Shown here: in pieces, positions 2,708 through 52,200 of the stretch | Position numbering within the stretch: the first letter of the stretch is position 1 | Layout of the letters: each line of letters starts with the position of its first letter | Source of the DNA: Macrostomum lignano | Taxonomy: Eukaryota | NCBI GenBank assembly: GCA_002269645.1 | Contig: NIVC01000754.1 | Span: 186,001-250,000 of the forward strand | DNA length: 64,000 nt | Reading direction: 5' to 3' | Notes under the pieces: model-generated | Database searches by the model: none | What the model was told of the DNA's origin: nothing | What the model saw: only the letters and a program-made list of their open reading frames with translations | Made by a program: the position numbers and the translations under genes

Positions 2708-2818
2708 AAATAATTTAATTCGGTACCTTTTGTCTGGCTTAGCTATTTACTCCTCAGGTAGGTCAGAAGGAAAATTCTTTAAAAATAATTGAGTATCTCA
2801 ACGGTTCTGAATTATATA

Positions 2819-26489: not shown

Positions 26490-26507
26490 AGCCGCCGCTG
26501 CCACCAA

Positions 26508-26677
26508 TGTAAGAACAAGCGAAAACGAGAAATAGGCTTAAGGCGTAGACCGACTCTTGGCTGCCCCGGGCGCCAAGGCACTGACTTGTATATTATGGTT
26601 GTACAGCGAGCAAATGTACATACGCGTTGAGCTAGTTAACTTGCGCACACACAATTAACTAAGCAAACCATCTTACA
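26508..26677 (-). repeat. 5' LTR of gypsy C (170 bp)
   Basis: TG...CA termini with TGTAAG/CTTACA inverted ends, followed by a PBS. Confidence 0.8.
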
Positions 26678-28253: not shown

Positions 28254-31200
28254 CTGACAGACGCAAATTGAGGCAATGAGAGACAAATTGCATGCTGTAG
28301 CTGTGTGTGCTGTAGCTGTGTGTGCTGTTGCTTTGTGTGCTGTTGCTTTGTGTGCTGTAGCTGTGTGTGCTGTAGCTGTGTGTGCTGTTGCTGTGTGTGC
28401 TGTAGCTGTGTGTGCTGTTGCTGTGTGTGCTGTAGCTGTGTGTGCTGTAGCTGTGTGTGCTGTAGCTGTGTGTGCTGTTGCTTTGTGTGCTGTAGCTGTG
28501 TGTGCTGTAGCTGTGTGTGCTGTAGCTGTGTGTGCTGTAGCTGTGTGTGCTATAGCTGTGTGTGCTGTAGCTGTGTGTGCTGTTGCTGTGTGTGCTGTTG
28601 CTTTGTGTGCTGTTGCTTTGTGTGCTGTTGCTTTGTGTGCTGTTGCTTTGTGTGCTGTAGCTGTGTGTGCTGTTGCTTTGTGTGCTGTTGCTGTGTGTGC
28701 TGTTGCTTTGTGTGCTGTAGCTGTGTGTGCTGTAGCTGTGTGTGCTGTTGCTGTGTGTGCTGTTGCTTTGTGTGCTGTAGCTGTGTGTGCTGTAGCTGTG
28801 TGTGCTGTAGCTGTGTGTGCTGTAGCTGTGTGTGCTATAGCTGTGTGTGCTGTAGCTGTGTGTGCTGTTGCTGTGTGTGCTGTTGCTTTGTGTGCTGTTG
28901 CTTTGTGTGCTGTTGCTTTGTGTGCTGTTGCTTTGTGTGCTGTAGCTGTGTATGCTGTTGCTTTGTGTGCTGTAGCTGTGTGTGCTGTAGCTGTGTGCTG
29001 TAGCTGTGTGTGCTGTAGCTGTGTGTGCTGTAGCTGTGTGCTGTAGCTGTGTGTGCTGTAGCTGTGTGCTAAAGGAACTCACGGCAGTGCCAGAGGCTCG
29101 TCGAAGTAAATCTTGCCGTCGTACCTAAATAGGCAGGTGAAACTCAGATGAAAGCCCATGCTCTGTACCTTAGTTCTTTCTTTTGTTAAAATAATTTATG
29201 AAATGGAATTCATAAATACATTCTGCTTTATGGTAAAAGTCCGTAATACAAGCGTATTATCAGAAAAGCAAATTTCAGACGTGGAGTTTAAACTCAACTG
29301 TCACAGCAAGAATGCTTGCTGTTGTCTCATAGCTCGCAGGCAGCTGAACATTAATATTCAACTGGAATCTGCAGTCAAACTGCACTGCAAACTCCCTCAA
29401 TGCAGCTCAGTCAGTGTCTGCTGCCCATTTAAACTACAAAAATATAAAAATTCCCACTCAGAGTAACGGCAGTCAGCTGCTCAATATTCAATCATAAATT
29501 ACAGCATGTTTATCAATGATAAATCAAAGTCAGAGAGACATTCTCAGTCGCCATGGAAACTCACCCACGCAGCAGCTCAGCCAGTTCGTTCCTTCCCTTT
29601 TGTGTGGTCAAATCCAGCGCAGTCCTGCCGCTTCTATCCTTCAGACGCCAATCCGCCCCTGAGTCCAGCAGAAGCCGACCGACTGTGGCGGCGGTGGCGG
29701 GGGGCGCAAAGGCTGCCTCCATGAGTGGCGTCAATTCACGCAGACCTTCCCTGGCATTGGCGGAGGCTCCGGCAGCCAGCAGGGCGGAGGCTGCGGCAAA
29801 ATTGCCAGCCCCGGCTGCCCAGTGCAGGCAACTGTCAGCCACTCTATCCGCACAGGTGGGGTCACCCAGCTGCACCAGCTGCTCCCAAAGAGCCTCATCA
29901 CCGCACGAGCTGTTCTGAGCTGCCCACATCAAAGCGGTCCAACCCCAAGAGTCAGGCAGGTCGCAGTTGCCGCGGGTCGCCGCTCGCCGCAGCCCCGCCG
30001 AGTCGCCCGCCTTGGCCAGCCGCTGCAGTTCCTGTCGATCCGCCTCCTCCTGCAAAGACGAGCGGGAAATTTGAGCACAGCTGCTCAGCTGCAGCCGCAT
30101 CGGCACCGCAGATGCCGCTCACCTGGGCTGTCAGGTCGGAGATCCTTCCATCTGCATTCATAACCAGCCGTATCTCCCTGCAACAGCAAAAATGACCAAC
30201 GAATTAGCAATTTTCTCAAATCCAATAATATGCACGATCGCCAAAATCAAAATTTTAGATGTAAGATAGAATTGTCAGGATAGATTTGTGGTGGTAGCTG
30301 CTAGCTAGAGCTAGCGTTGTTGCACTTTACCCAATCATATCCTCGTTTTGTCTCTGGTAGCAACCAGCTATACGTTCTTAAGCTTTCGCTCTCAGCCTCT
30401 CACTCATGTTGTAATTTCCTATGCTTAAATAAACTCTGTGCTGCTTCAACATTATTGCCAAAGTGCCGACAGCTTCGTTCAAACTACGACAATGGCGTCG
30501 CGGCTTGGCAATCTGGATCTTACAGACACGGTTCATGCATTAACCTGGATTAAGGAATTCAAAGCCTTGGCTCGAACCAAGAAGTGGGAAGATAAAGAAA
30601 CAGAATGACAAATCACGGACAACTTTTTAGAGCTCTGTGGTCTAGCAGCTCTCGAAAAAGTTACTCATCTTGTCGCTCCAAAAGAAGTGGAAGCATACAC
30701 TTTTGCGGAGCTAGAGACTGCCATTACGAACTTTCTGCAACCCCAAAAGCACCTTGTCGTTGCTGAGAGAACTGAATTCTTTACGCTACGTTACGCCCAT
30801 AATGAGCCCATTACGAAGTTCCTTTCTCGCTTCAGGAAGGGGACCACGTACTGCGAGTTCGATGCTCTAAAAACCTGCACCAGCCCGGAAGAGGAAATGG
30901 TACGTCTGATGCTCATCTCTGGCCTGCAGGACCCAGAAGATCAACGACGCCTTCTGGGAGCCATGCAAACGAAAGACTTGAAGATCACCGAAATCGTGGA
31001 TATTGTCAGGACTACCGAAAGTAGAAGGCATGAGGGGGCTTTTGGGACAAAATTTTTCACATCCTCCATAATCCCAGTAAATCCATCCATATTATCCCCG
31101 ACAGAATCAGAAAAAAAGGGGGGTCGCACTCGCTCACAAAACGTCCTCCATAATCCCATTAAATCCATCCATATTATCCCTGACAGAATCAGAGCATTAT

Positions 31201-34200
31201 CCCTGACAGAATCAGAGCATAACAGGTGTCCACTAACACCTGTTATGCTCACTGACACAGACATAATCCACCAACATCCACCCATAGCATCTTCGAAACA
31301 ATCAGAAAATAATCTGCATTCTTCTCCCCACATTCAATCCGAAGCGTTGAAACCAGATCCCTAAAACTTTAAATCCCCTAACCCAGGGTCCTTACCCTTT
31401 GAAAAAAAATTAAATTTTCTCTAAAAATGTTTCCAGTTGTCTCTTCAGGTTCCTATTATACTCAGCCTCATCTATTGTATAAATCCAAGTACCGTTGCAA
31501 ACTAGAATGCAGCGAGTACATGAGAAAATATTGGCCCGGCGTTGATGTCAATGTCCCTAATATTAATCAAGCACTTAAATCTCACTGGTTTGAAAAACAC
31601 GGACTATTCATTAACAATTTTGACAGCTATTATAACTTTGCTGAAGTTATAAGGCAGTTGTAGTAGCCAACTAAAAGGTTGTACCCTGTAGAGTGCAGAC
31701 GCAAGATCTAAAAAATACTGACTAAATCATGTGCAGCATAAAGCGGCTCGTATTTGTAAGCGATAGCTTACTGATAGTAAAGCTATTTGAACATGGTGCG
31801 AATTCCTCACATGGTGGACTAGAAAATGTCGCCATGTGCAAGGGCGTATAAATAGCAGTTCCACTCAGCTGGCTAGAGGTGGAGCCGACCTCGCGTGGCT
31901 ATGACTGACTGACGAAAGCAAAAAAAGCCCAAAACCGGTCTCAGTCTGCCCCGCATGGTTCGATTCCCACTGATAACATGATTTTCACGAACGTTCGTAA
32001 AAATCATGTGCAGCATAAAGCGGCTCTCAGTGGTTACATGATTTTTACGAACTTTCGTAAAAATCATGTGCAGCATAAAGCGGCTCTCAGTGGTTACAAG
32101 TTTTCTCGAACGTTCGTGAAAATCATGTGCAGCATAGAGAAAAAAAGCTTGCCCAGCTCAAGGATTCCTAAACTAGCTCAAAGGATCCCTCGCCTAACTT
32201 CACAAACGCCCATTTAGTTCCTTGTTTAAACCCCCAGCCTTCTCAACCCCCAGCTCTTTCAGCAGAACTCCTAGTTTTTTCCTTGGCGCGTGCAGTACAA
32301 AGCCCACCCCGCCCTCTCTCCCCGTACACCAACCCCCGACGCACACCCCCAACCCCAGTTTTGTCTTACCAAAAATAACCGCCTTGACTAATTTCCTAGC
32401 AATAGACTCGCGAAATCCGCTTGAAGCCCCTATATTGTCTAGTCTCCTAAGCATTTCTTTGTCCCAACGATTCTTCTCCTCAGGAAAATCTCTATATTTA
32501 ACATCGTGCCACATGCAGACAGAGTCTAGCTCGTTCACAGGCTCATGCCCAGGATTTGGATTATTGTTTTTATCTAACTGTATTTCAAGTGGATTCAAAG
32601 GCCCGCAATATTTATAGCCGGGAAGTGTCCAGCCTTTGTTTGGATGAGGAAGCTTTTCTATCAGTCCATGTGAATCTATTTTACCACCAGAGCGTTGCAT
32701 TATTTTATTTAAAATTTTCTTTTTAAAAAAATGACAGATCAGAAACTTAAAAAAACTCTACTACAGCGACAAAGGATTCTTTGTAGGAAAAAATGCAGTC
32801 ACCAAACTCACAGAACTAAGTAAGGAACCAAAAGCTAAAGTAGAAAAGTGGCTCTCTAAGCAAGCAGTCTACCAAGTCTATTTCCCACCAGTAAAATTTG
32901 AAAGGCCCCATTTCAGTATTTATAAACCTAATGAAGCGCACCAAGCAGACCTTCTGTTTCTCCCCAATGACTCGGGCTACAAGTATGCTCTCACAATTAC
33001 AGACGTTGCCTCCAGATATAAGGAAGCGAGACCGCTTAAGACGAAGAAGTCAGAAGCAGTTGCAGCCGCCCTTCAAGATATTTATAAAAACTCTCCGCTC
33101 ACATACCCCCAAATCTTTATGACCGACCCGGGTAAAGAATTCTATGGGGCAGTCAAATCCCTTATGGAAAAGAAAAATACAAAAATTCGCTATGGCAGAA
33201 CAAACTTGCACAGAGACCAAGCGTACGTTGAGAGATTCAATCTAACTCTAGCCAAGAGGCTATTCACTAAGCAGTCAGCTGAAGAGCTGAAACTAAAAAG
33301 TGGTCAGTACTATACCAAGTGAACAGACCGGCTCCCCACTGTTATAGAGCAACTGAACAATGAAGTCACGCGCATGACTGGATTGAAACCATCCCATGCA
33401 ATTAAACAAGACACTGTCAAACTTAAGGCAACTCATAGAACAGACAACAACACGACAACCCCACACATCACACGCAACACAAAACACACCTCGAACTACC
33501 CTAAGCTTCCAGCAGTTGAATCACCATACATACTGACAAACTCTGAGGTTCTACGCTTTTTATATCTACCTGGAGAGCTAGAGAAGGACACTAAAAGAAG
33601 AGCTACAGATCCATACTTCAGCCTTGATGTACATAAAATAGACAGACATTTTACCTCCGACTCCAGTGACTATTTCTTTTTATCTCAAGCCTTTAACCCT
33701 AAATTCCCCACACGGTCATTCACTAGAGCTGAACTCCTAGTGATACCAGCTGACACAGAAATTAATTAAAATATTAAAATAAAAAAATGACAAAGATTGA
33801 AACCAGAACCATCAATAAACTCAATAAAATCATTGAATCAAAGAAACCAGGTCTTATATCAATAAAAGGTGTCAAAGTTAAGGTTGATCACACACAGCAA
33901 ATAGTTCAATGTAATGAGCAAAGACACAGCATCACAGATGAAAAGTCAGGAGGAATCCTACCATTAGCAGCTCTTATTCCAATCATTGCAGGCGCTGTAA
34001 GTGCCGCAGGTGGTGTAGCTGGAGGTGTAGCAACTGCTGTTAAAGCTGGGAATGATAGAGCCCACCAGCTGGGATTGCAAAAGATTGCAAGAGATAAAGG
34101 TATAACAATTAAGGCAGGAGAGGGCTGCCCGGATTTTGATGATCGTGATGATTGTGATGATTGTGAGCATGAAAATTATATAAGCAAGTCTGACATTGTC

Positions 34201-37200
34201 AAAGCCATCATGACACTGCACAATGCTGGGTTTACAATAATGCGCATGTGATGAGGTTTAAAACCCCACTTTATCCAGCTTCATAAACCTAACGCTACTT
34301 ATAGGATGTAGAAACAGTTCAACTTTTCTATCAGGGTGGTAACCCTCAAAAAAATTTTTATTTTAGAGAAAAAAAATGCCAAAAGCCAATCCAGCAAAAT
34401 ATTTGGTCAACAAATATTTTTCAAAAGGCGTCTTATTTCAAGACAAAAGTAATTTACTAAGAGAAGCATGTAAACAAAAGTTTAACACCGACCCTGGTCA
34501 CCTGGGAAGCTATGAGAAACAGTTGGAAATCATCAATCAATTAGAATCCAACCAGTATGCGCCTATACAAAATCCTGCAAAGGAACACCAAGAGAGGAGT
34601 CGCAACTTAGTTAACAAATACGAAACTCTCACTGGTGAAAAAGCAAAGTACCCACAAAATAAGCAGGAACAAGAGAAATTAGAGCAATTAATCCATTTAA
34701 AAGAGTCGGAGCTTGCCATTGAAGAGATTAATTTTGCACAGAGGAAGTTTACAGAACATTACATAGAGTACACAATCCCAATAAACGGCACCAACCAAAT
34801 TAACGACACCAACGGCACTACCGCAAACATCTACGACTATAAAGACAGCATCCAATCAGTTGTTGATCACACACTCAAAACACGCAAGACCTTTAAACTA
34901 CAGATATCATTCAAGATTGCGTTTTATATGCCTGCAAAACCCACTGAGCATCTCGAGTATTACATGACAACAAAGGCAAAGCCATTCACCCCAACAGACA
35001 CACTGGATCCTTTCCTTCAAGATGTCACTAAGAAAATTGAAGCGTTTACATCCAGAGGTTCCGGATGGGTCGTGGGAGGGATTCAAAGAGCGACTGTCAT
35101 GGTCATGAAATATGATCCACTTAAAGCCTCCTCTTATATAGAGCTCCCGCATAAGCTAGCCGGCAAAAAAAAGCTTGGATAAATGTTAAAAATAAAGACA
35201 ATTGCTGTGCTCTACGGGCAGTTCTTTCTGCACTTCTTCATGATAGTGTCCTTCACCACCCCGAAAGAACCTCAAATTATCAAAATTATTTCAACTACTA
35301 TCTCATCGAATGCGAAAAGAAGGGAATCAGGTTTGACAAAGGAGGCTTGGCGATCTCTCAGATCCCAAAGCTAGAAGAAGTGTTTAATAACAAAATTAGA
35401 ATCACAGTCTTTGAGTGGAGTGAAAAAACTGAGAAAGTTCAACCGGTCAGATGTAGCAAAGACGTTTTAGATCCTGAGGGGAAAAGGCGGACTGAAGTGG
35501 ATCTTCTAGTGATTGGTAATTTACTAGAGGAGGCTCACTATGTTTGGATTAAAGATCTTTCAAGACTCATTCACAAGCAGTTGAATAATCATCACGAGGC
35601 TGTTGCCATCTGCCGCTTGTGCCTTAAGCATTACAGTGGACCTGAACGCTTTGAAAAACTAGCAGAGCATGAATTATCATGCGAGGATCACCCAACAAAC
35701 TGCTCTCTTCCTTCAGCTGAAGAGAAGTATCTCCGGTTTAAGAACTATCATAAGATGGAGAAGCTCCCATTTGTTGTATATGCTGATTTCGAATGCTCAA
35801 TCATTCCAGAAACTCAAAAACAAACTCAAACTCAAAAACATGTCCCCAATTCAGTAGCATATGCCTTTATTAATACAAAAGGACTTGTTGAGTATAATTA
35901 TTTCTTTGGAGAGCAGTGTTAGAGTTGCAAAGAGTAATTAGCACCCTTCAACCTGTTCCAATAAGTATGTCTGAGGAGGATGAAAGCAATTTCCTATCAG
36001 CAACTCATTGTCACATCTGCAAGAAACAGTTAACTTGCACTAATATTAAAAACCCTACCGTTAGGGACCACTGCCACTTTACTGGGAAATTTAGAGGCGC
36101 CGCGCATAACACCTGTAATCTAAAGCTAAAATCGAACATTCATGATCTAACGATATTTTGTCACAACGCAAAGAACTATGACATGCATTTAATAGTTGAA
36201 AAAATCGGCATGATTCCAGACATACACCTTGATTGCATCGCAGAGAACAAGGAGAAGTTTAAGTGTGTTGATATTAAACAGGATAATTCGGGTACAGGTA
36301 AAATAAGACTGAAGGATTCATATCAATTTCTAGCTGCCAGTCTAGACGAACTAAGCAAGAATCTAAAAGATGAACAATGTACATATACAAATGTTTGCAA
36401 GTAAAATTAACAACAGTGATGAATCATTTAAACTTTTAAGAAAGAAAGGCTTCTACCCCTATGAAATATTACTGGTATCACGTATTTGAAGAAGGTTTAC
36501 CACCACAGGAGAAGTTCTTTTCAAAGCTAACAGACTCTGGAATCTCTGACAAAGACTATGAGCACGCGAAGCATGTCTATAATTACTTTAATTGTCAAAA
36601 CTTCTTCCAGTATCACCTGCTTTACCTCTTCACAGATGTGTTTCTGCTGGCTGATGTGTTTGAAACCTTCAGATACACCTGGTACACAGCATATGGCCTC
36701 GATCCAGCACATTATGTGTCTCTGCCTGCCACTAGCTGGGAATCTTTGCTTAAAATGAAATGGGATCAAGATCCAGATTGGTACATTGAACTTCTTACAG
36801 ACATTGACATGTACAATTTTGTCGAATCGTCAAAGCGAGGGGGATCTCAATTTGCGTTAACAGGTATGCAAAAGCAAACAATCCCTACATTGAATCTTAC
36901 AATAAGGAGCAGCCCTCAAACTACATTACTTACTTGGACGCTAATAATCTCTACGGTGGGCGATGAGTCAAGATCTTCCAGTTAGAGATTTTCGATGGCT
37001 ACCCTCATCAGAACTAAAGTGGGACTTTTCATTGGCTGCCATTTATGAGGTTGATGTTTACATTCCACCAGAGCTTCACGACTATTTCTCTGACTTTCCA
37101 CCCTTCCCAGAGAACATCAAGTGCCCGAAAATAATCGAAACTCCCAATGGAACTTGGCACCTGTCAGGAACAGAAAAAGAACATACAGAGAAACTAACAC

Positions 37201-40200
37201 AGAATCTAAACAACAAGACACGTTACAAAATCCATTACAAACTGCTTCAGTATTTTATCTCACTTGGTTGCAGGGTCACCAAAGTTCACAGGGCTCTTAC
37301 ATTTACAGAGGAAGCGTGGATGAAACCCTACATTGATAAGAACACCCAGTTTAGGACCAAAGCAACCAACGACTTTGACAAGAACCTCTTTAAGTTGGCC
37401 AACAACTCTGTCTATGGCAAGACTCTTGAGAATGAGCGGAAAAGAACAAACCTGAAACTTGTTACCTCATCAGAGCCTGCTGTTATTCAGGCAAATATGT
37501 CAAAGCCAACATTCAAAGAACTCCATATCTTTAATAGCTACTTAGGTGTGATCATATTTTACAAAACCAAGGTGACGCTGCGCAAGCCGATCTATACAGG
37601 TGTCACTGTTCTCGACGAATCAAAACGTCTGATGTACCAGTTCTTCTATGGCATGAAGCAGCAGTACAAGGATAAAATGAAACTCTTGTACACTGACACA
37701 GACAGTTTTATTATGGACATTCAAACAGAAGACATTTATCAGGACATGCTGCAGCAAAAAGATTTGTTTGACTTGTCTGAGTATGATGAATCTTGCAGGA
37801 CACTGAATGGTGATCAAGTTTTTGACGCTACTAACAAGAAAGTGATTGGGAAAATGAAGGACGAGATTGCTGGTGACATAATCACTGAATTCATTGGTTG
37901 AGAGCAAAGTCCTATTTTGTAAAATGTGAGTCGTCAGACCCAATTAAAAAATCAAAGGGAATCCCGAAACGTGTGGTTAGGAAGGAAATTAATGAAGCTG
38001 AATGCAGAGACGCCTTGAATTGCAACAAAAAGACATCTCATGAGTTCTCAAAGCTACAATCTAAAAACCATATTATTCACACAATTCAGCAGAAGAAGAT
38101 TGGACTGTCAGGTGCAGATAACAAGAGATTCATTTGTGATGACAATATCAACAGTCTACCGTTCGGGCACTGGAGATTCGGCTTAGGAGGTTGGGTTTAG
38201 GAGGTGGAGATTAGGAGATTAGGAGGTTAGGTTGAGGTTTAAGAGACTGTTTAATAAAACTCATAAAAATGACGACAAATAACTTTCTTGAAGATTTGGC
38301 TAACGAACTGGAAATCCCAAACTTTAGAGGAATATTTATGAGGGACACTCTGCCTGATTTTCCTCTAAGAAAGGAATGCGGCATCATGAACTTTGACACC
38401 ACTGATAAGCCAGGATCTCATTGGGTTTGTTGGGTGATTGATCCCGATCGCAAGCACAAGTGTTATTACTTCGATAGCTATGGGACGGCAGTACCAGAAG
38501 AGCTAAGAAATTATATGAAGGGGAAAAATAAAAAAAAATGTATCACTCAGACTTTATTCTTCAAGGTCTTAGCAGTGATATTTTCGGTGAGCTGCGCATG
38601 ACTGTTTTGTATGCAATGACCAAAACACGAAAGACCTACAAGGAAATTATTCTTGGCTGTGTTTCATAGGGGTTCATTGTGCATTTCTCGTCGTCCTTCT
38701 TGCCGACTTTCTTTCCGCATAATGTTAAAGAACTTTCTCGAGTTCATTTCTCAGCTGACTCATGTCATCAGTACCGACCATGTTCAAGTTCATTCGAATT
38801 GATTGTTCATAAAGATCCTGAATGGTTTTGAACTCATCCTCTGAAATGAACTTATCCTCGATTGCCCTTGAAATGTACCCTATGATTGAAGTGTGCACCC
38901 CTTTCTCTTTTACTTGCTTCTCCTGTAGCTGCTTTAGTTTTTTTCGCCTGTTTCGCGCTACTGCTCCAGTAATTGCTGAAATAAGTCCACATTCAGCACC
39001 TACTGAACCAAGTGGAATTGCGATTGGGGCTGTGATGACTGGCAACACTGAGACAGCTGCAGCAGACCCAGTTAGAACAGACACAGATCCTAGAATCATA
39101 TTGCTGTAGTCGAAAAATTTACAGTGACTATTATAGCGCTTAATTTTCTTTGTGTTGTGGAAAATATTTTTTTCAAGATCATCGCGCATTTTTTGAATCT
39201 CCACCAGTCGAAACTGTTGAGAGTTACAAGTAATGACGGGGTAGAGTTTTTGCTGCTCATATTGGGGTGCATTCATATTCGGTGCCAGGTTTTGTGTGTT
39301 CGAATTCGGTGCCATTGGGTTTGGTGCTGTCGGTATTTTAGGTTCAGACTGATCGTATAAAGAATTTTGTTGGGCCATTTTTTTCTCTAGAAAAAATAAA
39401 AAATTATAAAACTATCCGGTTGAAATATCTGTTATTTTCTCTTTGGTAATTTCATCTGCAGTAATGATCGAACGAGCAGTAGATTCTGCTTCATCAATAG
39501 CAATATCACGAAGATTGAGTGCTCTCTCCAGACGATTAAGCCTCCTTAGTGTTTTACCCGAAGAGCTATAAATTCCATTTAGATAGCTACTGTGTGATAC
39601 ATCGTTTCTCTTCAATGCTTCAAGTTTTTCTTTTATTCTGTCATGCAACGCTGTTGACTGGTTCATGAACTCTTCTAAATTATTCACTTTAGCTGTGTTT
39701 GTGAAAACTCCTCCTTCAAGAATGCGCATCTGTCTAGCAGTAGAGTTTCTCAGAAGATTAACTGTCGATGCTAACCCATTGATTTGCGTGACTACCGAAG
39801 TTATTTCTGACCTTAGTTCATTAAAGCTGTGATCAAACTGCACATAAATCTTATCACTTTCAAACTTCTGCCTAGCTACTTTAAGCCTGAGATCTTCCAT
39901 GTTTATCTGTAGCTGGTGCATGGAGCGCTCTAATTGTTTCAGTCTGTTTTTATTCAGTTTGATCTCTGGGATCTCTTCATCAGTGTTAATGTAGCGCTTG
40001 TCAAGGAAGGAAGTTGTGAGAGTGCTGTTGCCTGTAGTTGACTCACCTGCAAAATTAATAGACATTTTTTTAAATAAAAAATTAAAGTAAAATTCTTTTC
40101 TCCTTATTAATCATGACAAACTGATAGGGTTGGTTCCACTTTTCATAGCATATGTTAACAAATTCCTCCTGTGATATTGTTCTGTTAGAGTTCTTAGCTG

Positions 40201-43200
40201 GATATGTAATGTGAGCTGGGGCAATGACCTCATTATAAAATCGTTTCAGTCGATCCTGTGGTATGGTTGGGAAAAGGAGAATCAAATTACAGTTACCTCT
40301 AATTGTTTTATTTGACAGTTCAAACCAGTTTTGGGCAATGTAAATAACATTGCAGTTATTGTGTCTACCCCGGGTGAAATAATTTTCTATCTGTTTCTGG
40401 GGACCGGTCATGCAGTCATCAAAGACAATCAGGTGCTTTCTCCCCTTTTCTAGTTCATCAGGTTGAGGTAAGAGTTTAGTTTTAGGATCTATCTGTGGAT
40501 CTCCATAAGTGAAAACTTTAATGTTTTGCCATTTTTCATTGTCTGGGATGTGCTTTGCGTATTCACTGGCTACAACTTCCGGGTTGCTGTTGAGGTCTTT
40601 TTGATGTCTAAAACATTGAATAATATCTTCCTTGTTGAGTTTGTTCTGTAGGCCCGCTACTAGCATTTTATACTCATCTTGATACAGAGTGGGTGAATAG
40701 ATATGTAGTGTGTCATAATCGAGGAATCCAGGTCTGAGGAGCATGTTAAAAACTCTGAAGGTTTTCCCTGACCCAGATGAGCCAACAACAATGCATCGGA
40801 AGTGCCCTGGAATTATCTCGTTGTGAGCAAATTTTATCTGATTGCGTGTCCAGTGGGGATGAAAGTCGTTTGTGAAGTCCATTTTTTTATGTAAAAAAAC
40901 TTTTTCTTTTTAAACTAGTGTATTTAAGACGCGTGTGTCTCTTTGCGGGATGTGTGTGTCTTTTTTTCTGGTTGTGTGTGTCTTTTTTCGACTAGTCCTA
41001 CATCCGACTAGTCCTACACCCTCACACCTCTTTTACCGTCAGGGTGCACCAAATTAGTCAAATTTAAAACCGCCTCCTTTCTTATATTCAGCTCTCGTCT
41101 TTGCGTAGATGGCTGGATCGACACTATCTGCACTCGGTGCAAGGGGTTGAATATCTGGTATTGATTTCCGGGTTTCATGAACCGTATCTTTAATCTTTTT
41201 GGCTGCTGTGACTACACTGCCGGCCGCTTCGGCAACGTTCTTGATGTTCTCTTTGTTCTCTCCAATGACCTTAAAAATCTTGGCCCCCTGAGCGATCAAA
41301 TCGGCAAGGCCATTCCCAGAGCATTCTTTTCTTGGATAGTGGCCTGCAGGGAAAAGTCCAGATCCGCGTTTAATGAGATTAAGTTCCTCTTTGTCATAGT
41401 ATTTGTCAATGTCTTTTTCGAAAATAATTGGCATCTTTTTAAATAGAAATTATTTTTTGTTAAACCGTAAAAGCAAAAGTTCTCTTGCTCTTTTATCGAT
41501 ATATTTTCTCTCAAGCATTTTGTCTAGGATATGAACGAACTCTTTTCTATTCTCATCTTTCATTCCAGTCTTTGCCGCTCCTAGAAGAACAGCTAACCGC
41601 TTGTAGAATTCAGGCATGCCTTTTCCGGAAGAGCTTGGAGGTGATTTGAATGATTGGTCAGAGGAGGAACTGTCATGTGGCGCTTGTCTTTGTTGAGGTG
41701 TGAATACTCTGTTATTGATTCGCTTCATTCGTTCTGGGGAGAGCCGCTCTAATTGTCGCCAAGTATCAGGGTTTGTATCTTTGTACTGCGAAACAAGAAT
41801 CGGTTCTGCGGCGTCAAGTTGATCAAGTACTTGTTCAACCTGGGTTTTTTGTTGCTGTGGAGGTGGTGGTTGCTGTGGTTGTTGCTGTTGTTGTGGTTGC
41901 TGCTGTTGTTGTGGTTGCTGCTGTTGTTGTGGTTGCTGCTGTTGTTGTTGTTCTAGATATTTTATGACTTCCAACTGATCTGGCAAACCAAACCATTGCT
42001 TAAAGTATTTGTATTTTCTAAACCTGTTCAAGTCAATCCTGTTTTCATGTAAAACTTTCAAAACACCGTTGTTCTTGAGAATGTCTATGTCCCTCTCTAA
42101 AGCGAAGGTAACAAGATCTTTGTAATTTTTTAGCTGCTTTCCAGACGTTTTCTCTAGATTTTTAGTCATGTAATCAAGTAAAGTTTTAGTGTAGGGGATT
42201 CTTTTAGTTTCTGCACCTTTATTGATTGAAATATTTTCATTTGTCACTTCAATGTTGTAATCCACCGGTTCCTTGGTAATTTCTTTTCGCCAGGCGCTAA
42301 TTCCAAAAATATATTTTCCATCAACCATTGCGGGGCCAAAAAAGTTATCCGTCACATTCATCTGCACCGGTTGTGCTTCTGGTTGTCCTGGTTCCTGAGC
42401 CTGTGGTTGTCCTGGTGAAGATGGGATTTTACCCAATGTGTTTTGCAACTGGCTCTCTTGAATATCATCAACTGCTTCCTTCACAGTGTCGATGTTTTTC
42501 TTCGCTTCTGTGTATCCGAGTTTATGAAACTCTGTGGCTGCTTGGACAAACTCATTGTAGGATTGTTGCTCCTTATTTATTAGCCCGGTAACTCGTTTCT
42601 CTGCTTGTGCTAGCTTCTCCAATTCAGATATCTGCTGTGTACTTTTTCGCTTTATTTCTTATTTTATTTTATTTTTAGTTAAAAAATGAACGACCCACTG
42701 ACACCAGTTTTCTACAAAATTAACAAGCCTATTTTGAGTGATGATAGCACAATCAAAGCTGTATTTGGAAGTCATTGAGCCAAAGACTGCACTAAAAGCG
42801 GATTATCTCAAGGCAATAGAGAAGGACATTGATGTTGCATACACGGCCTACATGTGTCGAGATGAGCGAAACGAAACTAGAACAAACATCTGCATTAAAG
42901 AGGGATCATGCAGCAATCCACGGTATATTATTATTAACATGAGAAACCCAAATAGCATTATACGCTACATGCATGGAGACGTGCGGTCCATTCAGCATGA
43001 AATCAGTGATAATCTTTACCCTGCACTGCCACAAAATGGAGATTTCACTCAGAACAAGATTAGCAAATTTTACAGCGAGTTAGTCGACTTGGCTGTGAAA
43101 GAGAACAATGGAATTGCTATCACTGCTCTTCAATATGGAACTCTATATCCGATGTTTGGCGCTGATGTGTCTGCCAGACAAATGCCTACTGATAACAGCC

Positions 43201-46200
43201 CTGTGAATATCGTGACTAACATTGAAAGGACTGCCGCAACACCCGTGGACTTGTACATTATCTATGCATTTGAGAGGAAGGTGAAGCTTAACATGATCAA
43301 CAATTCATCCAGTAAAGTTTAAATTTTTTAGGACAAAAAATGGAAGCCATAGCCGAAAGACTAAACAACATTGTTTCACACTCTAAGGAGAGCATTCCTA
43401 TTACAATAACTGGGCGAATTAATGACTCAAACGGGATATTTGTTGAAAAATTAGAGCAGGCGATTCGCCTGGATCCAGGCGCTAATTACCATGTCTATCT
43501 TAACGACTTCACTGGTTGGTCAAACGTTCCTAATGTGACGGCAGCAAATAATTAGTTTTATTACAAATGGAAAGGTGCAGCAGCAGACCCTGTGGTATTC
43601 CATGTGAGCACGCAAAGTGTGGATACCTACAATAACTTTCTAGAAAATGTCTTTACTAAGAGAGGCCATTTTCAGACACCTGATGCGAGTAAGCCAGAGA
43701 AGAAACTGTTCCCTGTCAAACTAACCTATGATCTCACTGTAATGAGAGTGGTCATGCAAGTTCACAAAGATGCGGAGGTTGAGTTTAAAGATGACACTTG
43801 GTATAGGGAACTGGGATTCGAGAAGAAAGTTTATAAGGCAGAATCCGCGGCGCGGACCGCCACTCAAGCATCGGGGACTGTTAGAATGGTCCGGGAAAGT
43901 GTAAGCGGTTTGTTCTTAGCACCCAATATTGCAGACATTGTAAAGGGTTTGAATATTCTAATCAGAAGCAATCTCAGTCTTGATTGGGTATTTAAGGGAA
44001 AGCGAACGAATATTTTGTACAACATCTCCAACTCTGTTGCTGGAGGACAGATGGTGGTAGAGAAACCAAATCCAGTGAAAATAGTTGTATTGAGTAATAA
44101 GGAGATTCACGAGATTGTGCTACAGTTTGAGACTGAAGATGGGGTGGGTGTTGATTTCAACGGTGAAGAGTTTGTATTGACGTTAATCATTGAGAGAATG
44201 TAAGAAATCACAACTGCCTTATAACTTCTGCAAAGTTATAGTAGCTGTCGTAATCTTTTACGTAGGTTACTCCATACTTATGAAACTAGTGTCTTTGGAG
44301 AGCTAGATTAATATTAGGGACATTGATATCAATGCTGGGCCAATATTTTCTCATGTATTCGCTGCATTCAAGTTTGCATTGGTACTTGGATTTGTACAAT
44401 GGATGAGGCTGAGTATAATAAGAACCTGGAGAGACAACTGAAAACATTTTTATTGAGAATTTAGATTTTTTTCAAAGGGTGAGGACCCGGCGTTGATGAT
44501 TTAAAGTCTTAGGGATCTGGTAGCACGTTGCGGATTGAATGTGGGGAGAAGAATGCAGATTATTTTCTGATTATTTCGAAGATGCTATGGGTGGATGTCA
44601 GTGGATGATGTAGGACACCTGTTATGCTCTGATTCTGTCGTGGAGGAAGGAGGATAGGTTAGGAGGATTATGTTCGAAGTTTTGTAAGCGAGTAGGACAC
44701 CTGTTATGCTCTGATTCAGGGATAATATGGATGGATTTAATGGGATTATGTTCGAAGTTTTCGGAGCAAGTAGGACACTTGTTATGCTCTGATTCTGTCA
44801 GGGATAATATGGATGGATTTAATGGGAACCTGAAGAGACAACTGGAAACATTTTTAGAGAAAATTTAATTTTTTTTCAAAGGGTAAGGACCCTGGGTTAG
44901 GGGATTTAAAGTTTTAGGGATCTGGTTTCAACGCTTCGGATTGAATGTGGGGAGAAGAATGCAGATTATTTTCTGATTGTTTCGAAGATGCTATGGGTGG
45001 ATGTTGGTGGATTATGTCTGTGTCAGTGAGCATAACAGGTGTTAGTGGACACCTGTTATGCTCTGATTCTGTCAGGGATAATGCTCTGATTCTGTCAGGG
45101 ATAATATGGATGGATTTAATGGGATTATGGAGGACGTTTTGTGAGCGAGTGCGACCCCCCTTTTTTTCTGATTCTGTCGGGGATAATATGGATGGATTTA
45201 CTGGGATTATGGAGGATGTGAAAAATTTTGTCCCAAAAGCCCTCTCATGCCTTCTACTATCGAACAAGTGACGAAGTTCGTAGACAGCAGGGATCTTCAA
45301 AACGCTGACACAGAGCCTACCCAAGAAGGACACTCCATCAACTTCGCAGGGAAGGGAGCTCGGCAGCATCGAGGCGGTAGCGTGACCATGTCCTATGAAC
45401 GGCATATAAGCGACTGCAAGTTTTGTGGCAGATCTTACCCAGCTGGCAAATGCCCGGCTTACGGCAAGATATGCAACAAATGCAACAAGCGCAACCACTT
45501 TGGATCTGTGTGCCGCTCCAGTGGCGTCAAACAGGTCAACCATATGGACACGAAACTTGTAACCTCAGACTCCGACGCCTCTGAGGTACTCCATCTGACA
45601 GATGTAGATCTCATCCATGCTGTTTCGGTAACTACAGAAACTGTGCTGATCAACGGTGTCGCTATTCCGATGCAGATCGACACCGGAGCTTCAGTTTCAG
45701 TGCTTTCTAGCCACCTATGGGAATCGCTGCAATGCCCTAAATTGGACAAGTATCATCGGCGACTCGAGGCAAATGATGGCCACATTCTGAAGACATTGGG
45801 AAAGCTGTCTACCACTGTCAAGACGCGCGGTCGAATTCATTCAGCTGAGCTGATGGTGGTTTCATCTTCGAAGACATTCGGCCTGCTAGGATGCGATCTT
45901 CTAGATGGCGACGCCGTATTTCACGCAGCCTACACTGCCACAGCGGCGCCTGCCAATGAACCACTGCCGACCATCAAGGGCATCAAAGCACAATGTACGT
46001 CAGTGGGAAAATCAAGTCGGATTCCTATACAATCCTCTCGATTGAGCACCTATTCTCCAAGCTCAAAAACGCAAAAAAGTTGCGGATAGAAAACAGATAC
46101 GAGTATAATAAATTCAGAATTATTTAAGAAACTAAGATGGCAAATTTGGCAAATTTGCCTATTTGGCAAATAGCTTTCGATGAATCTGCGGAGGAGCTAT

Positions 46201-49200
46201 TAGTGATCAATACCTCACACGGCCTCTATCGTGTCGAACGCCTACAAATGGGTATGAAAAATGCCTCTTTTTATCAAAGGGCCATGGAGAATACTCTATC
46301 TGACCTCAAAGGCATCCTTGTCTACCAAGATGATGTCTTTGAAGAGAATTCCGAAGCACTAGGTAAGCGGCTGAAGGCGGTCAAAACCAGGCTCGCAGAG
46401 AAGAAAGTGACCATCAACGAAAGCAAATCTATTAATATGTGCGATGAAATTTCCTTTCTTGGATTCAAAATCTCCGCATCTGGAATTCAGCCTGATGACC
46501 GTCTAGTTGACAAGATCCATCATATCGCCGCTCCCAGCTCCAAGAAGGAAGTTGAGCAGTTCCTTGGCCTAGTAAATTTTTTGCCCGTCTGATACCTAAT
46601 TTTTCCGCCAAAGTCGCTCCATTGAATCGCCTTCAGAAGGCAAACTCGCCCTTCGTCTGGTCCAACGAATGCGTTCACGCATTTGAGGGGCTCAAGCGAG
46701 AAATCTCATCCTGGCCTGTGGTGCAGACATACAGCCTGGAAAAAGAGGCCACTCTAACCACTGACGCCTCCAAAGGTGCGCTTGCGGCTGTTTTGACCCA
46801 GGACGGGCACCCCGTGATTTACATCTCCAGGACTCTCTCATCCGCAGAAGCTAACTACTCAAACATCGAACGAGAGACCCTGGCGATTTTCTGGGCAATC
46901 CATAGGCTGACAAACTACGAGCGTATCTGCAAGGAAGAAAGTTCACCATTCGGACTGACCTCCAACCGTTGCTTTGCCTCTTTGGTGGCCGCATTCCATT
47001 GCGCACCTTTTCCAGAATCAGCCGATGGGCGCTGTTTCTAATGCAATTCGACTTCACTCTGGAATACGTACCAGGGACAAAAATTCCGCATGCCGACGCG
47101 CTCTCCCGACTCCGGTTCGAAAACGCGGATCTTGAGCCTAGCAGTACCTTTTGGGCGATAAACTGCGTTGCCTTTGAAACCCCAACCATCGATCCAATAT
47201 CCGAAATGGAGTCGGACAGACTCCTTCAACGAATAGTTCGCCGCATTCGGTCTAGTGACTGGCGAGACTGCACACAAGCAGAGGCAGCCTTTAAGAAAGT
47301 CGCGGAATGCCTGACCCTAGAGAATGGCCTGATCTAGATGCGCCGCCGAGCATTCATTCCACCAAGGCTCAGACGAGAGGCCTTCGACGCAGTGCATGAC
47401 ACTCGTAGGGGTTCCAACGCAGCGCACAAGTTGCTTTCACAGACCTTTTGGTGGCCTGGTATGCAGAGGGACGTGGAGCAATTCGTTCATCAATGCCAGG
47501 TGGTGTGTCGTGAACTTTAAGTTAATGAATCTGTTTTATATTCTATGGATGAAAGCCATATAAATTCAATTCGCTATTTTATAAGAGCTGCGAGCTAGTG
47601 GAAAACAGAAAAGAGGGAAAAGCTGGCCGCAGGAAATATATATCTGTAGAATGAGCATCGGCTCAATTGTATGAATTAAAGATTGGACTTGGTTATTCCA
47701 CAACAACGACACAACAAATGGCTTCGCAACAGCGAGATAATCTGCGTGATCTGCCCTGGACTGAAGAAAAATTTAACGCCTGGATCGAGCGATTCGAGGC
47801 GATATGCAGATCGGGTGTGAAGGACGAGAAGAAAGACGGGTTCTCGCCCAAAACCGATTTCTTCATCAGTCTGATGGGTGAAACAGCGTACGAGAAGCTT
47901 CGAAATCTGGTGGCACCTGATAAGCCTAACAGCAAGACCTTCGAAGAATTAAAGACGGCAATTGAAAATCACGTTACGCCCAAGAAGCTGATTGTTGCGG
48001 AGCGCTATAAATTCAATCTTATGAAGCAAGAAGAGCACGAGTCTGCGGCAGACTTTGAAAACCGGCTGAGTGCGCAAGCCGACAAATGCGAATTCGATAA
48101 TTTCCTTCTAGAAGCGCTGCGGGACCGATTTGTGGCTGGCCTACGCAACGACAAGATAGTGAAAGAACTCATCGTTAAAGATCCCCTGACTCTAGAACTG
48201 GCAGTCGAGACAGCCACAGCTCAAGAACAAGTGCTCAAGAGCAATATTCCACAACTCGGGAAGATTGCGGCAGTGACGGCTGTCAAAGCAACTGAATTCA
48301 TCAAGCCACGCCGATTCTGCCTGAAGAAGCGCCCTCCAAGATCATGCCCAGCGTTTGGACCCAAGATGAACCACTTTGAAGCAGCATGTAAATCAAGAAG
48401 TTCGGGGTCCAAGAACAACGAACTAAGCTGGAAAGGAGGCCACAAAGAGCGTGTGCAAACACATTTCAAGCGTTTCCAAGGCGAGTGCGCTGGAATCGAA
48501 CTGGGCAACAACAGCGCACCTGGACAGGATCAGGAGCTATTCAGCCTGTCGGATTCTCACACTGAAAGATCGTGCTACCTGGTAAATCTAAAATTAAATG
48601 GCAATGAAGTCAACATGATGGTGGATTCTGGAGCGTCCGTTACTTGTATCGTAAAGACGCTAGCTCAGAAGATTAGACTCAGCTGGGACTACCCGACTTT
48701 TAAACTCACGTCATACGGAGGACAACCACTACCAGTTTTTGGAATGGCAAAGGTGAAAGTGCGTAAGGATAGGCTCGAATTAACACTCCCGGTGGTGATT
48801 TTGGACCTTGACGTCAAGCCTGTCATCGGTCGCGATTGAATTGACTACAGCCCAGTCCCAAGCATCAGTAGAACATCACGGGCAGATTCGAGTGAGACTA
48901 GCACTGTCACCTAATGCCAGGCCCATAGTGTCCAAAGCCCGTCCTCTACCATTTTCGTTGGTTTCACCTGTTCGAAGCAAGCTGGAAGAACTGGAGAAGC
49001 GTGGGATAGTTGAGAAAGTGCAGCGACCATTATTTGCTAGTCCAATCGTGGCCGTTCCAAAAAGCTCTGGTGACATCCGGATTTGCGGTGACTACCGTCG
49101 GATCAATCAGTTTCTGCAATTACCTCCTATCGAAATGCCCACTAGAGCAGACATCCAGCGAGCCATCCATGGCTGCAGTCGATTTTCGGTGCTGGATTTG

Positions 49201-52200
49201 AAGGAGGCATATCACAACCTGGAACTGGAAGACGACTCTAGGGATATTACCACAATAGCAACTCCATTCGGCTACTACCGGTACAAAGTTATGCAGTACG
49301 GGTTATCATCCGCCTCGGGGATTTTTCAGAATGCCCTGACTGAGCTGCTACGAGACATCGTCGGAGTTGTAGTCTTTATTGACGACATCCTGATTTGTGG
49401 TGCAGACAGCCATGATCTTGCTGAGAAGACAGGCGTCATTTTCCAGCGACTAAAGGAAAACGACATCACTCTCAATATGGAGAAATGCCAACTGGATATG
49501 GAGTCTGTCGAATTCCTGGCACTCAAAGTGTCGAAAAACGGCTGTTGCATGAAAGAAGACAAAGTGACCGCGATCAAGGGCATTCCCGATCCGAAGAGTC
49601 CTGAAGAGCTGCGTAAGTTCCTGGGACTGATAATTTTTTTGCACCTTTTATTCCTGACGTGGCTACCAAGACAGCGGAGCTGCACGATTTACTGTAGAGT
49701 GTTCTACCTCCCGTTAAAAAAGGATAAAAGAAGATAATCGTATAATGCTACTATAAGTAAGTAAGTACACGCATGTGCGCCTAAGCTTTGAATGAATCAC
49801 GCTACCAGGAAAAGATGTTACCAAAATGATACGCCATGAGCCATTTTCCCCTTTTAGCGCAACACGTGGATGGTAATAATGCTATTTTGGATCAAAAAGT
49901 TGCCTATAAATACAAGCGATCTGAAGCGGTACCGGAGTCACAATTCCTCCGGAAGGAGAAGAGCTCCGAAGAGGAAGCCACTACAGGACTTCCTACAGAA
50001 GACTCGTCGAGTTCTTGCGGTAAGCCTTACTCATTTGCGCCTGTATTTTGAGACGTCTCGTTGGAGTTTAGGTTGAGTCTGTTGAGACTCTTGAGTCTGT
50101 TTAGACTCCACTGGTTGCAGTCTCCAGAAGGACTGCCCCTGATAGATCTTAGGAGACTATCAGTGGTTTCCGGAGCTATACCTAGAGTGCATAGAGACAC
50201 TGCTAGAAGAAGGAGGCTTAATTCAAACCGCAGTTCGGCGCAGGGTACCCATTGTTGATACGAGGCCTCTGATTGGTCCTGACTGAAGATACCGGCCGGA
50301 GGAACTTATCGGAAGTACAAGAGGAACCAGGACCAGAGCAACTGAAGAATCAAGGCGCCTGATCTACGAGATCACAAAGAGATCCAAGCGAGATCTACTC
50401 GAAGACTACAGAAGAGATATCTCCAAGCGACGTCAAGGTAAGAAGTACCTTTAATTGACTTACTGGGTTGCCTAGCTACTGAGCTAGAAGTGAATGTTCT
50501 TTGATTACCAAAAGTCGGGTAATAAGGAACACATCATTAATCAAAAAGGAGACTGAATGGGAATGGAAAACTAAACACAGGACTGCTGTCAAGCAGTTAA
50601 AGGAGGACATCATTTCACGCCATGTACTGGCACCATACGATCCCAGCAAGGAGCTCACCCTGACTACAGATGCGTCACCGTGTGGAATCGGTGGAGTACT
50701 GGAACAGATGGGAAGGCCGATCGCATTCGTCTCTAAGAAATTGACACCGGCCGAGACCCGATATAGTCAATTGGAGAGGGAAGCTCTAGGTGTCGTCTGG
50801 TGCGTAAAAAAGCTAAACAGGTTTCTAGCCTACAGATACTTTGAGATCGTGACGGATCATAAGCCGCTAGAGTTTATCTTTAATTCGCACAAAGATTTGT
50901 CAGAACGAACTAGCAGACGAGTGCAGCGCTGGGCCGAGTTGTTTTCGGTGTACCAGTACAACATCAGGGGTAAAAGAACACATGAGATACCGCATGCGGA
51001 TGCCCTATCAAGATTGCCCACGGATGGTCATTGTAAGAGTGACAAATCTGCTACTGATGTTGTGAACGAAATAGCTGCCCTGGACCTTGCCTTGTCGGAT
51101 GAGCTGCCACTCACTATGGATCAAGTGGAGCAAGAGTCAACTATAGACCAGGAACTCAAAGAAGTTATATGTTGTGCCCTGAAGAATCGCCCTCACTGTT
51201 ACTTATTATAAATCACTCCCCCACCGTTACTTGTTCTTTCAATGTTAGCCTTAATTCTTTACAGTTATGTCTATGACCTCATTCCCCACGAAAGCAGCTA
51301 AAGACCCAGCTTTCCTCTATTTCTTTCTTTTCTTTCTTTAAGACTTGCTATGCTTGCGACTTATTTCCTAATTTTAAATACAACTGTTATCTGCGAAGCT
51401 TAACACACAACATTATCCGTAGACTGCAACTTGGCGAGGACCCACCAGAGTAATTCGTGAGAGTACACGGCAGGTTGAGCTGCAAGGGACATGTGCTGCT
51501 GTTTGATCAACGTATTGTGATGCCTGTGAAATTGAGGCCGCAGATCATCCGATTCCTGCACAGTTTTCATCCTGGAATTCAGGCGATGAAGGCTTGGGCT
51601 CGAATGTACGTATGGTGGCCCAATTTGGAGAAGGAGATTGTGAATTGTGTGAACCAGTGGAGCACATGCCAGCAAATGAGACCATTGCAGAAACCTGTAT
51701 TGAAGTCTTGGCCAGTACCAAAAGAGCCATGGTCAAGACTACATGCTGATCTTGGACAGCTGGACGGAAGCAACTTCCTAGTGATGCCAAAACAGGTTTT
51801 CTGGCAGCTGAGTTGGTCCACGAAATAGAGTCTGCAACTGTTATCAAAGTGCTGCGTCGGACATTCTGCAACTACGGGATTCCTGAAGTGCTTGTCACCG
51901 ACAACGGAAGGCAGTTCGTTGCTAGTGAAAAGGAGCTTTGGCTCAAAAGAATAGGTGTTTTGCACCTGAAGTCACCAAGATGCCATCCAGCTTCTAACGG
52001 CGCTGCAGAGGCAGCAGTAAAGCGGCTGAAAACGAAACTGAAGCAGCTGAGCGGCACAGATCCAGAGATTCGCATGCAACAGGCTCTCTATGCTCTTCGC
52101 GTCTGTCCAAGAAGCCAAGCAGCGGCACCGTGTCGGGAGATGTTCGGACGCGACTTCAACACGCGAATGACGCTACTTCATCGGCGGTCATACGAGGAGA

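What the first reader, a model, noticed from the sequence alone, without database searches (positions are those of the whole stretch)
31020..45258. Complete-length Polinton/adintovirus-like endogenous virus integrated in a retrotransposon gag
Seen: AGTAG/CTACT termini, 434-bp TIRs, a 6-bp TSD and about 14 genes covering replication, integration, packaging, maturation, capsids and membrane entry. Established: this gene set and TSD length define Polintons/Mavericks, and capsid-encoding animal members are proposed to be dsDNA viruses. Inference: probably an uncatalogued family in this host.
Basis: partly seen in the sequence, partly recalled or inferred. Interest (0 to 1): 0.8.

Follow-up and report, generated by a model that had tools for sequence, protein, structure and literature searches.

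The report
Broken Polinton provirus in flatworm genome
A virus-like jumping element of a well-known kind (a Polinton) sits inside an older retrotransposon in the flatworm Macrostomum lignano, but most of its key genes are broken, so it is an ordinary defective copy whose one odd feature is a doubled right end.

Summary
Real, but not complete. 31020-45258 (14,239 bp) is a Polinton/adintovirus-type provirus. It has AGTAG/CTACT ends, 434-bp TIRs (433/434 identical) and a 6-bp TSD with one mismatch, and it splits the gag of an older LTR retrotransposon. The host is Macrostomum lignano (a neighbouring kinase matches at 100%). It carries pPolB, rve integrase, adenain-like protease, A32 ATPase, double-jelly-roll MCP, probable penton, PLA2, a pX-domain protein and five unknown ORFs. 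'Complete-length' fails: the MCP lacks about 210 codons. pPolB has 7 frame changes, the integrase a frame change and a stop, the penton a stop and the protease a frame change. Only the ATPase of six core genes is intact, so as assembled it cannot copy, integrate or package itself. That suggests end repair by template switching, or nested insertion plus recombination. Closest relatives are unnamed environmental proteins (61-77% identity). No paper searched describes a Macrostomum Polinton; Repbase/Dfam were not checked. Verdict: new member of a known kind.

The parts
31014..31019 (+). Left target-site copy ACCGAA
45259..45264 (+). Right target-site copy ATCGAA (5 of 6 match)
31020..31453 (+). 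Left TIR (outer 434 bp), starts AGTAG; holds short internal repeats
31020..31661 (+). Longer left terminal region; 31072-31661 is mirrored by the inner right relic (inferred older TIR of about 640 bp)
31427..31663 (+). 78-codon ORF of unknown function in the long terminal region, with A-rich ATG context
   Evidence: no Pfam, PHROG or NCBIfam hit
31976..32136 (.). 2.7 copies of a 60-bp repeat with a 34-bp palindrome; non-coding, function unknown
   Evidence: (I14)
32200..32700 (-). Parvovirus-type phospholipase A2 domain protein (membrane entry, inferred); open, 166 aa
   Evidence: PF08398 E 1.4e-13
32731..33769 (+). rve integrase, broken: frame change near 32750 and in-frame stop at 33320-33322; D, D, E motifs present (read from the translation)
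   Evidence: PF00665 E 1.3e-9; lesions
33787..34251 (+). Protein with adenovirus pX (mu core)-like segment; open, 154 aa
   Evidence: PF05829 E 4.9e-7
34376..38200 (+). Protein-primed DNA polymerase B, about 1275 codons in 8 frame segments (7 frame changes, near 35165, 35900, 36410, 36470, 36843, 36957, 37898); vOTU-like Cys/His, exonuclease, HNH/endonuclease VII and polymerase motifs present
38269..38720 (+). Adenain-like cysteine protease, broken by a frame change near 38535; 3' end approximate; no recognisable Cys motif in any frame downstream
   Evidence: PF00770 E 0.004, below cut-off; adenovirus proteinase 1AVP E 0.047
38725..39378 (-). Open 217-aa ORF with a hydrophobic segment; similar to unnamed mollusc- and virus-associated clusters
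   Evidence: score 0.93, recognition below 2300, weak
39412..40065 (-). Open 217-aa ORF, probably coiled-coil (inferred), unknown function
   Evidence: weak hits only
40082..40882 (-). A32/FtsK-like packaging ATPase; the only intact core gene (266 aa)
   Evidence: PF04665 E 2.3e-6; 48 relatives, best 77%
41054..41434 (-). Open 126-aa ORF, candidate small membrane-active or core protein (inference only)
41450..42658 (-). 402-codon open frame, Q/P-rich, unknown; no ATG near its 5' end (first in-frame ATG at 42361 lacks the A-rich context)
42686..43322 (+). Double-jelly-roll major capsid gene with an internal deletion: about 25 N-terminal codons joined out of frame to the C-terminal about 188 codons; about 210 codons absent
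   Evidence: (relatives PF21738)
43340..44203 (+). Probable penton (minor capsid), in-frame stop at 43553-43555
   Evidence: Position next to the MCP; Atlas hit to Sputnik V18/19 cluster, score 0.97, recognition 2270, weak; no Pfam hit
44210..44827 (-). Inner TIR relic: inverted copy of 31072-31661 at 483/556 = 87%, no AGTAG-type terminus, carries a stop-interrupted copy of the 78-codon ORF and 78-bp tandem repeats
44820..44827 (+). Junction between relic and outer TIR: 3-nt exact overlap, 7 of 8 imperfect
44825..45258 (-). Right outer TIR, 433/434 identical to the left, ends CTACT
30287..54120 (+). Host LTR retrotransposon that received the insertion: LTRs about 30287-30492 and 53670-54120 (190/201 aligned columns identical; 3' LTR interrupted by about 240 bp); gag split at 31019/45259

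Best explanation
A defective endogenous Polinton (adintovirus-type provirus, most like the Beta/group 1 polymerase class) in the Macrostomum lignano germline. Its parent lineage worked as Polintons are thought to work (inferred from family knowledge): pPolB primes at the TIR ends with its own terminal-protein domain and copies a linear genome, the ATPase packs it into MCP/penton shells matured by the protease, PLA2 and pX-like proteins aid entry, and the rve integrase inserts it with a 6-bp duplication. Shown here: the ends, the TSD, the insertion into gag and the gene set. This copy is young (TIRs differ at 1 of 434, against 5.5% between the host LTRs), but as assembled it cannot replicate, integrate or form a capsid; at most it could move with enzymes supplied by a sister copy. 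The doubled right end most likely arose outside the chromosome, before integration. A right end that had lost its tip paired with the left end in a panhandle, primed across a short microhomology and copied the terminal 434 bp (inferred; about 0.5 on its own).
For: TIR, termini and TSD. Gene families. pPolB span 1275 codons against a median of 1258 in 71 full-length relatives among the 150 listed; catalytic residues shared with nearly all relatives that cover them, e.g. vOTU-like Cys 62 of 63, ExoI Asp 71 of 71, Pol C Asp 71 of 71. MCP deletion mapped with 6 of 6 relatives matching the first 24-25 codons and the C-half separately. Little amino-acid decay: ATPase 3 of 134 otherwise invariant columns changed (relatives 0-12), MCP C-half 8 of 103 (relatives 3-8). 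GC 40% against 48-50% in the flanks. The TSD flanks the outer TIRs, so the outer right TIR was in place at integration. Panhandles are a proposed homology-restoring mechanism for protein-primed genomes (PMC11886824, passages).
Against: Some breaks may be assembly errors: 4 of 9 frame changes lie near homopolymers of 5 or more (background 14%, P 0.03), and 8 of 9 fall within about 3.4 kb. One TSD mismatch in 6 bp is more than the TIR clock predicts, so the TIR identity may be inflated by gene conversion or polishing. PMC11886824 says direct evidence for panhandles is still lacking. The microhomology was noticed after the fact (7 of 8 in 0.2% of random pairs). The penton and protease calls are weak and both folds failed. 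No reference Alpha or Beta sequences were available for a tree.
Confidence: 0.85

Rival explanations
1. The element is intact in the animal and the breaks are assembly errors.
For: Homopolymer enrichment and clustering of frame changes; catalytic residues present; TIRs almost identical; zero indels in the TIRs is compatible with this indel rate (P 0.2-0.5).
Against: A deletion of about 630 bp in the MCP and two in-frame stops are not typical small-indel consensus errors (general knowledge); 5 of 9 frame changes are not near long homopolymers; six genes totalling about 3.4 kb are fully open.
Confidence: 0.08
2. The doubled right end arose in the chromosome: a related Polinton (about 87% identical) inserted into the first element's right TIR, the two recombined internally, and a microhomology-mediated deletion removed the second terminus. 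The interior would then be a chimera of two elements.
For: This locus collects nested insertions (second LTR element 47501-52709). It explains 13% divergence between the left end and the relic, and pN/pS 0.45 between the two copies of the terminal ORF (59 codons, P 0.053).
Against: It needs three events within the short time allowed by 1 difference in 434 bp; no second terminus or second TSD is left at the junction. The pN/pS value also fits one constrained and one relaxed copy in a single lineage.
Confidence: 0.3
3. All lesions arose by neutral decay after integration of a fully autonomous virus; no helper was ever needed.
For: Two stops are compatible with the TIR clock (expected 0.5, up to 2.9 at the upper bound).
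Against: Frame changes are concentrated in pPolB (7 of 9; P 0.008 against length; 0.02 if one more lies outside), and 9 indels plus a large deletion is many beside 1 substitution in 868 TIR bases. Caveat: frame changes in genes without relatives could be missed.
Confidence: 0.45
4. The doubled end is a misjoin of two genomic copies by the assembler.
For: The host is a recent polyploid with repeat-rich DNA (listing); the window is full of minisatellites.
Against: The junction has only a 3-8 nt overlap, too short for a repeat-driven join (inference); the flanks are one gag in register with a TSD.
Confidence: 0.08

Closest known systems
Polinton/Maverick elements (polintoviruses)
   Same: pPolB + rve integrase + protease + ATPase + MCP + penton, TIRs of 100-1500 bp, TSD of 5-8 bp, 13-25 kb (definition as quoted in 10.1101/2023.08.22.554363, passages; capsids PMC4028283, passages).
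   Different: This copy has 5 of 6 core genes broken, about 210 MCP codons missing, and a nested second TIR on the right.
Beta-class adintoviruses (Starrett et al., PMC8502044; parts 1-4 of 6 read)
   Same: Animal host; adenain, FtsK, rve, hexon, penton; polymerase only weakly like pfam03175; pX-like domain gene.
   Different: Carries a PLA2 gene, which that paper calls characteristic of Alpha virion modules; here PLA2 and the pX-like segment are in separate genes. GasderminX and cupiennin genes were not identified. No flatworm example appears in the text of Fig. S2.
Planarian (Schmidtea mediterranea) Polintons
   Same: Polintons in a flatworm genome, under piRNA control there (PMC8532177, passages).
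   Different: Different flatworm order; no sequence comparison was possible.
Unnamed environmental relatives (P0001-P0006 MCP; P0007-P0014 ATPase)
   Same: MCP C-half 64-75% and ATPase 61-77% identical; same first 25 MCP residues.
   Different: Four of the six MCP relatives are 422-438 aa (the other two 360 and 388 aa); they lie on short contigs (0.9-3.7 kb) with no host or gene order. Best pPolB representatives are only 39-48% identical.

Membership tests
Polinton/Maverick | [quoted passage not shown] | tested here: met
   11,996 representatives at E<=0.001 for one piece; full span and motifs. Gene broken by 7 frame changes.
Polinton/Maverick | Retrovirus-like rve integrase | tested here: met
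   PF00665 above cut-off. Gene broken.
Polinton/Maverick | TIRs of 100-1500 bp and length 13-25 kb | tested here: met
   434 bp, 14,239 bp
Polinton/Maverick | 5-8 bp (usually 6 bp) target-site duplication | tested here: met
   6 bp with 1 mismatch; P about 0.006 by chance
Polinton/Maverick | Packaging ATPase | tested here: met
   PF04665 above cut-off, intact
Polinton/Maverick | Adenovirus-like maturation protease | tested here: met
   Weak: PF00770 E 0.004 below cut-off; adenain structures are 3 of 3 PDB hits at E<=1. Gene broken.
Polintovirus (capsid-encoding Polinton) | Double-jelly-roll major capsid gene | tested here: met
   Relatives carry PF21738 above cut-off (2 of 2 scanned; 6 of 6 precomputed); the window piece is 64-75% identical to them
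Polintovirus (capsid-encoding Polinton) | Full-length MCP able to form both jelly rolls | tested here: not met
   209-215 codons absent
Polintovirus (capsid-encoding Polinton) | Single-jelly-roll penton near the MCP | tested here: inconclusive
   Position fits; Atlas 0.97 to V18/19 but recognition under 2300; no Pfam/PHROG hit; fold pLDDT 30
Autonomous (complete) Polinton | All core genes open | tested here: not met
   1 of 6 intact
Adintovirus, Beta class | PolB divergent from pfam03175 | tested here: met
   1 of 7 pieces scanned hits PF03175, below cut-off; 0 of 4 full-length relatives at E<=0.01. No direct comparison with the Terrapene reference was possible.
Adintovirus (Alpha and Beta) | N-terminal OTU domain in PolB | tested here: inconclusive
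   A conserved Cys (62 of 63) and His (66 of 69) precede ExoI, as described in PMC11161782 (passages); fold not tested
Adintovirus, Beta class | GasderminX and cupiennin accessory genes | tested here: inconclusive
   A pX-domain gene is present; no profile for either gene was available
Adintovirus, Alpha class | PLA2X: PLA2 fused to a C-terminal pX domain | tested here: not met
   PLA2 ORF hits only PF08398; PF05829 lies in another gene
Adintovirus (Alpha or Beta) | Hexon/penton clustering with Mayetiola or Terrapene references | not testable with these tools
   Reference sequences not held; PDB and phage searches blank
Adintovirus / polintovirus | Free linear genomes or virions | not testable with these tools

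The most novel reading that the evidence does not exclude
The element belongs to a helper-dependent, defective Polinton lineage that kept replicating and integrated recently with enzymes from an intact sister, after losing its polymerase and half its capsid gene. Its right end (an 87% relic capped by an exact copy of the left terminus at a microhomology) would be a genomic fossil of panhandle-templated end repair, a step proposed for protein-primed genomes but without direct evidence. An active helper would then exist in a transgenic laboratory flatworm.
Probability: 0.25. Interest if true: 0.6.

Novelty: new member of a known kind. Interest (0 to 1): 0.35.

Why it matters
Polintons are found across animals, planarians included, so one more defective copy changes little. 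It does appear to be an undescribed family in a model flatworm, and its youth points to recently active sisters. The doubled right end gives a cheap, specific test of how Polinton termini are kept identical: if sister insertions share the junction, the repair happened in a replicating extrachromosomal form.

Tried and rejected
Exact look-up of 10 element proteins: 0 of 10 found. A second look-up for source names of relatives could not be made, so their hosts are unknown. AlphaFold of an MCP relative with a 6-row alignment (pLDDT 35) and of the penton read through with X (pLDDT 30): unusable, so no fold search was run. PDB sequence searches for the MCP piece, the MCP profile and PLA2: nothing relevant. 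Phage collection with an MCP relative: no match. GTDB genomes with the MCP alignment: 77 pattern matches, 0 confirmed. PHROGs and NCBIfam on unknown ORFs: only weak or compositional hits. tRNA or VA-like RNA near 31957: ARAGORN found 0 genes in the window, Rfam nothing near gathering scores, 31850-31985 fold z -1.1, B-box-like motif reached by 9 of 100 shuffles; rejected as unsupported. The z -7 fold of 31850-32140 comes from the palindromic repeats. The ATG at 42741 as MCP start: rejected, it lacks the A-rich context and relatives begin at the 42686 ATG. No other copy of the element in the window. Endonuclease VII/HNH as a Beta marker is recalled, not read; 10.1101/2023.08.22.554363 reports an HNH domain in group 2 pPolB2 too, so I do not rely on it.
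Full report
Observation. The element runs from AGTAG at 31020 to CTACT at 45258, 14,239 bp. The terminal inverted repeats are 434 bp with one mismatch and no gap. The flanking hexamers are ACCGAA and ATCGAA, a 6-bp duplication with one change; a match of at least 5 of 6 has P about 0.006. GC is 40% inside and 48-50% outside. That AG-type ends are usual for Polintons is recalled, not tested.

Host and site. A kinase frame 3 kb upstream gave 41 hits at E<=1e-20, all named Macrostomum lignano, one 100% identical over 56% of the query. The insertion splits the gag of an LTR retrotransposon: a weak gag match on the left (E 0.013), an aspartyl protease on the right (E 3e-10), then RT, RNase H and integrase, with the frame in register across the site. 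Its LTRs (about 30287-30492 and 53670-54120) match at 190 of 201 aligned columns. A second LTR element is nested at 47501-52709 (LTRs 94%). The Polinton's TIRs differ by 0.2%, so it is the younger arrival, as the nesting requires.

Genes. From left to right: a 78-codon terminal ORF, PLA2 (PF08398), rve integrase (PF00665), a pX-domain protein (PF05829), pPolB, an adenain-like protease (PF00770 below cut-off; PDB adenain E 0.047), two unknown 217-aa ORFs, an A32 ATPase (PF04665), 126-aa and 402-codon unknown ORFs, MCP and a probable penton. Twelve of these 13 have an A-rich ATG context; the 402-codon frame does not. The pPolB region spans 1275 codons against a median of 1258 in the 71 full-length proteins among the 150 best representatives listed. 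Of 15 motif positions checked, 13 are shared with most relatives that cover them; two positions are variable. A conserved Cys and His before ExoI fit the vOTU domain described in PMC11161782 (passages); the fold was not tested.

It is not complete. Six MCP relatives (360-438 aa, all PF21738) match codons 1-25 at 42686 and, in another frame, a C-terminal block from about 42756. Residues 26 to about 235-240 have no match anywhere in the window, a loss of 209-215 codons. pPolB falls into eight frame segments. The integrase has a frame change near 32750 and a stop at 33320-33322, the penton a stop at 43553-43555, and the protease a frame change near 38535. Only the ATPase of the six core genes is open. 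Amino-acid decay is slight: 3 of 134 otherwise invariant ATPase columns are changed (8 relatives: 0-12) and 8 of 103 in the MCP C-half (5 relatives: 3-8; P0006 left out as it lacks the C-terminus).

How the lesions arose is open. Seven of nine frame changes are in pPolB, which is a third of the coding length (P 0.008). That fits a polymerase relaxed before the last integration. It also fits a poorly polished stretch: eight of nine lie within about 3.4 kb and four of nine lie near homopolymers of 5 or more (P 0.03). Two stops are compatible with post-insertion decay. The large MCP deletion is the firmest sign of real damage.

The doubled right end. Inside the outer right TIR lies an inverted copy of left 31072-31661 at 483 of 556 aligned bases (44210-44827). 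It stops in a tandem repeat, without a terminus, and passes into the outer TIR across a 3-nt exact and 7-of-8 imperfect overlap with the left end; 0.2% of random pairs reach 7 of 8, but the test is after the fact. It holds a second copy of the 78-codon ORF with a stop; pN/pS over 59 codons is 0.45 (P 0.053). The simplest reading is an older TIR of about 640 bp whose right copy lost its tip and was capped by copying the left 434 bp. Panhandles are the usual model for such homology restoration in protein-primed genomes, though PMC11886824 (passages) says direct evidence is lacking. Nested insertion of a relative with recombination and a deletion is the main rival (0.3); a misjoin is less likely (0.08). 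Among the 15 papers listed of 59, none held my phrases for duplicated or embedded TIRs; this is a weak check.

Comparison with known groups. All defining Polinton features quoted in 10.1101/2023.08.22.554363 (passages) are met, with weak evidence for protease and penton. By the criteria of PMC8502044 (parts 1-4 of 6 read) the polymerase looks Beta: one of seven pieces hits pfam03175 below cut-off and none of four full-length relatives does. PLA2 is called an Alpha-module trait there, but here it is not fused to pX. Without reference sequences the capsid class could not be tested. Autonomy and a full-length MCP were tested and not met.

Novelty. None of 10 element proteins is in the collection exactly; these are partly broken genes, so this says little. 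The nearest relatives are unnamed, on short contigs, at 64-75% (MCP) and 61-77% (top eight ATPases); pPolB representatives reach 39-48%. Searches for Macrostomum with Maverick (2 papers) or Polinton (1 paper) returned unrelated titles, seen as listings only; none of the 30 papers listed of 242 mentions Macrostomum. The supplements of the genome paper PMC5730564 (3 files) do not hold the terms, but do not hold 'Gypsy' either, so they may lack a repeat table. The Starrett supplement was cut before Table S1 and the sequence files, and the supplements of the Jeong preprint were closed; both may bear on the claim. Polintons are known in Schmidtea (PMC8532177, passages). PMC11131425 and PMC6431247 were seen as passages only and add nothing specific.

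Verdict. A real, young, defective Polinton provirus; probably an undescribed family in M. lignano; a new member of a known kind. Interest 0.35, mostly for the doubled end and the hint of active sisters.

Noticed in passing
window 47501-52709: A second LTR retrotransposon (gag-protease, RT, RNase H, integrase; LTRs 94% over 216 bp) is nested in the pol of the element that holds the Polinton.
   Followed up: partly
window 53718-53956: An insertion of about 240 bp interrupts the host element's 3' LTR.
   Followed up: no
window 21984-26537 (-): A third, degenerate gag-pol retrotransposon in the opposite orientation (read from ORF translations).
   Followed up: no
window 15461-19357, 27225-30118, 54922-55503: Tandemly duplicated M. 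lignano kinase and ankyrin-repeat genes with 15-bp minisatellite introns; the transposons sit inside this array.
   Followed up: partly
window 31957-31967: An exact RNA polymerase III B-box-like motif just before the 60-bp palindromic repeats; no tRNA or Rfam support, 9 of 100 shuffles have one.
   Followed up: yes
window 31662-31666: A second AGTAG lies exactly where the similarity to the inner right relic ends; 9 AGTAG occur on this strand of the element, so it may be chance.
   Followed up: no
window 31976-32136: 60-bp repeats with 34-bp palindromes form a long hairpin (z -7 with flanks); role unknown.
   Followed up: partly
window 487-1551: Two in-frame ORF pieces that look like a P-element/THAP-type transposase (recalled likeness, not searched), followed by inverted repeats at 2813-3374.
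   Followed up: no
window 3844-4497: ORF resembling the C-terminal part of a TRAF protein (recalled likeness, not searched).
   Followed up: no
window 5300-10100: About 4.8 kb of C-rich 12-15 bp minisatellite giving long spurious ORFs.
   Followed up: no
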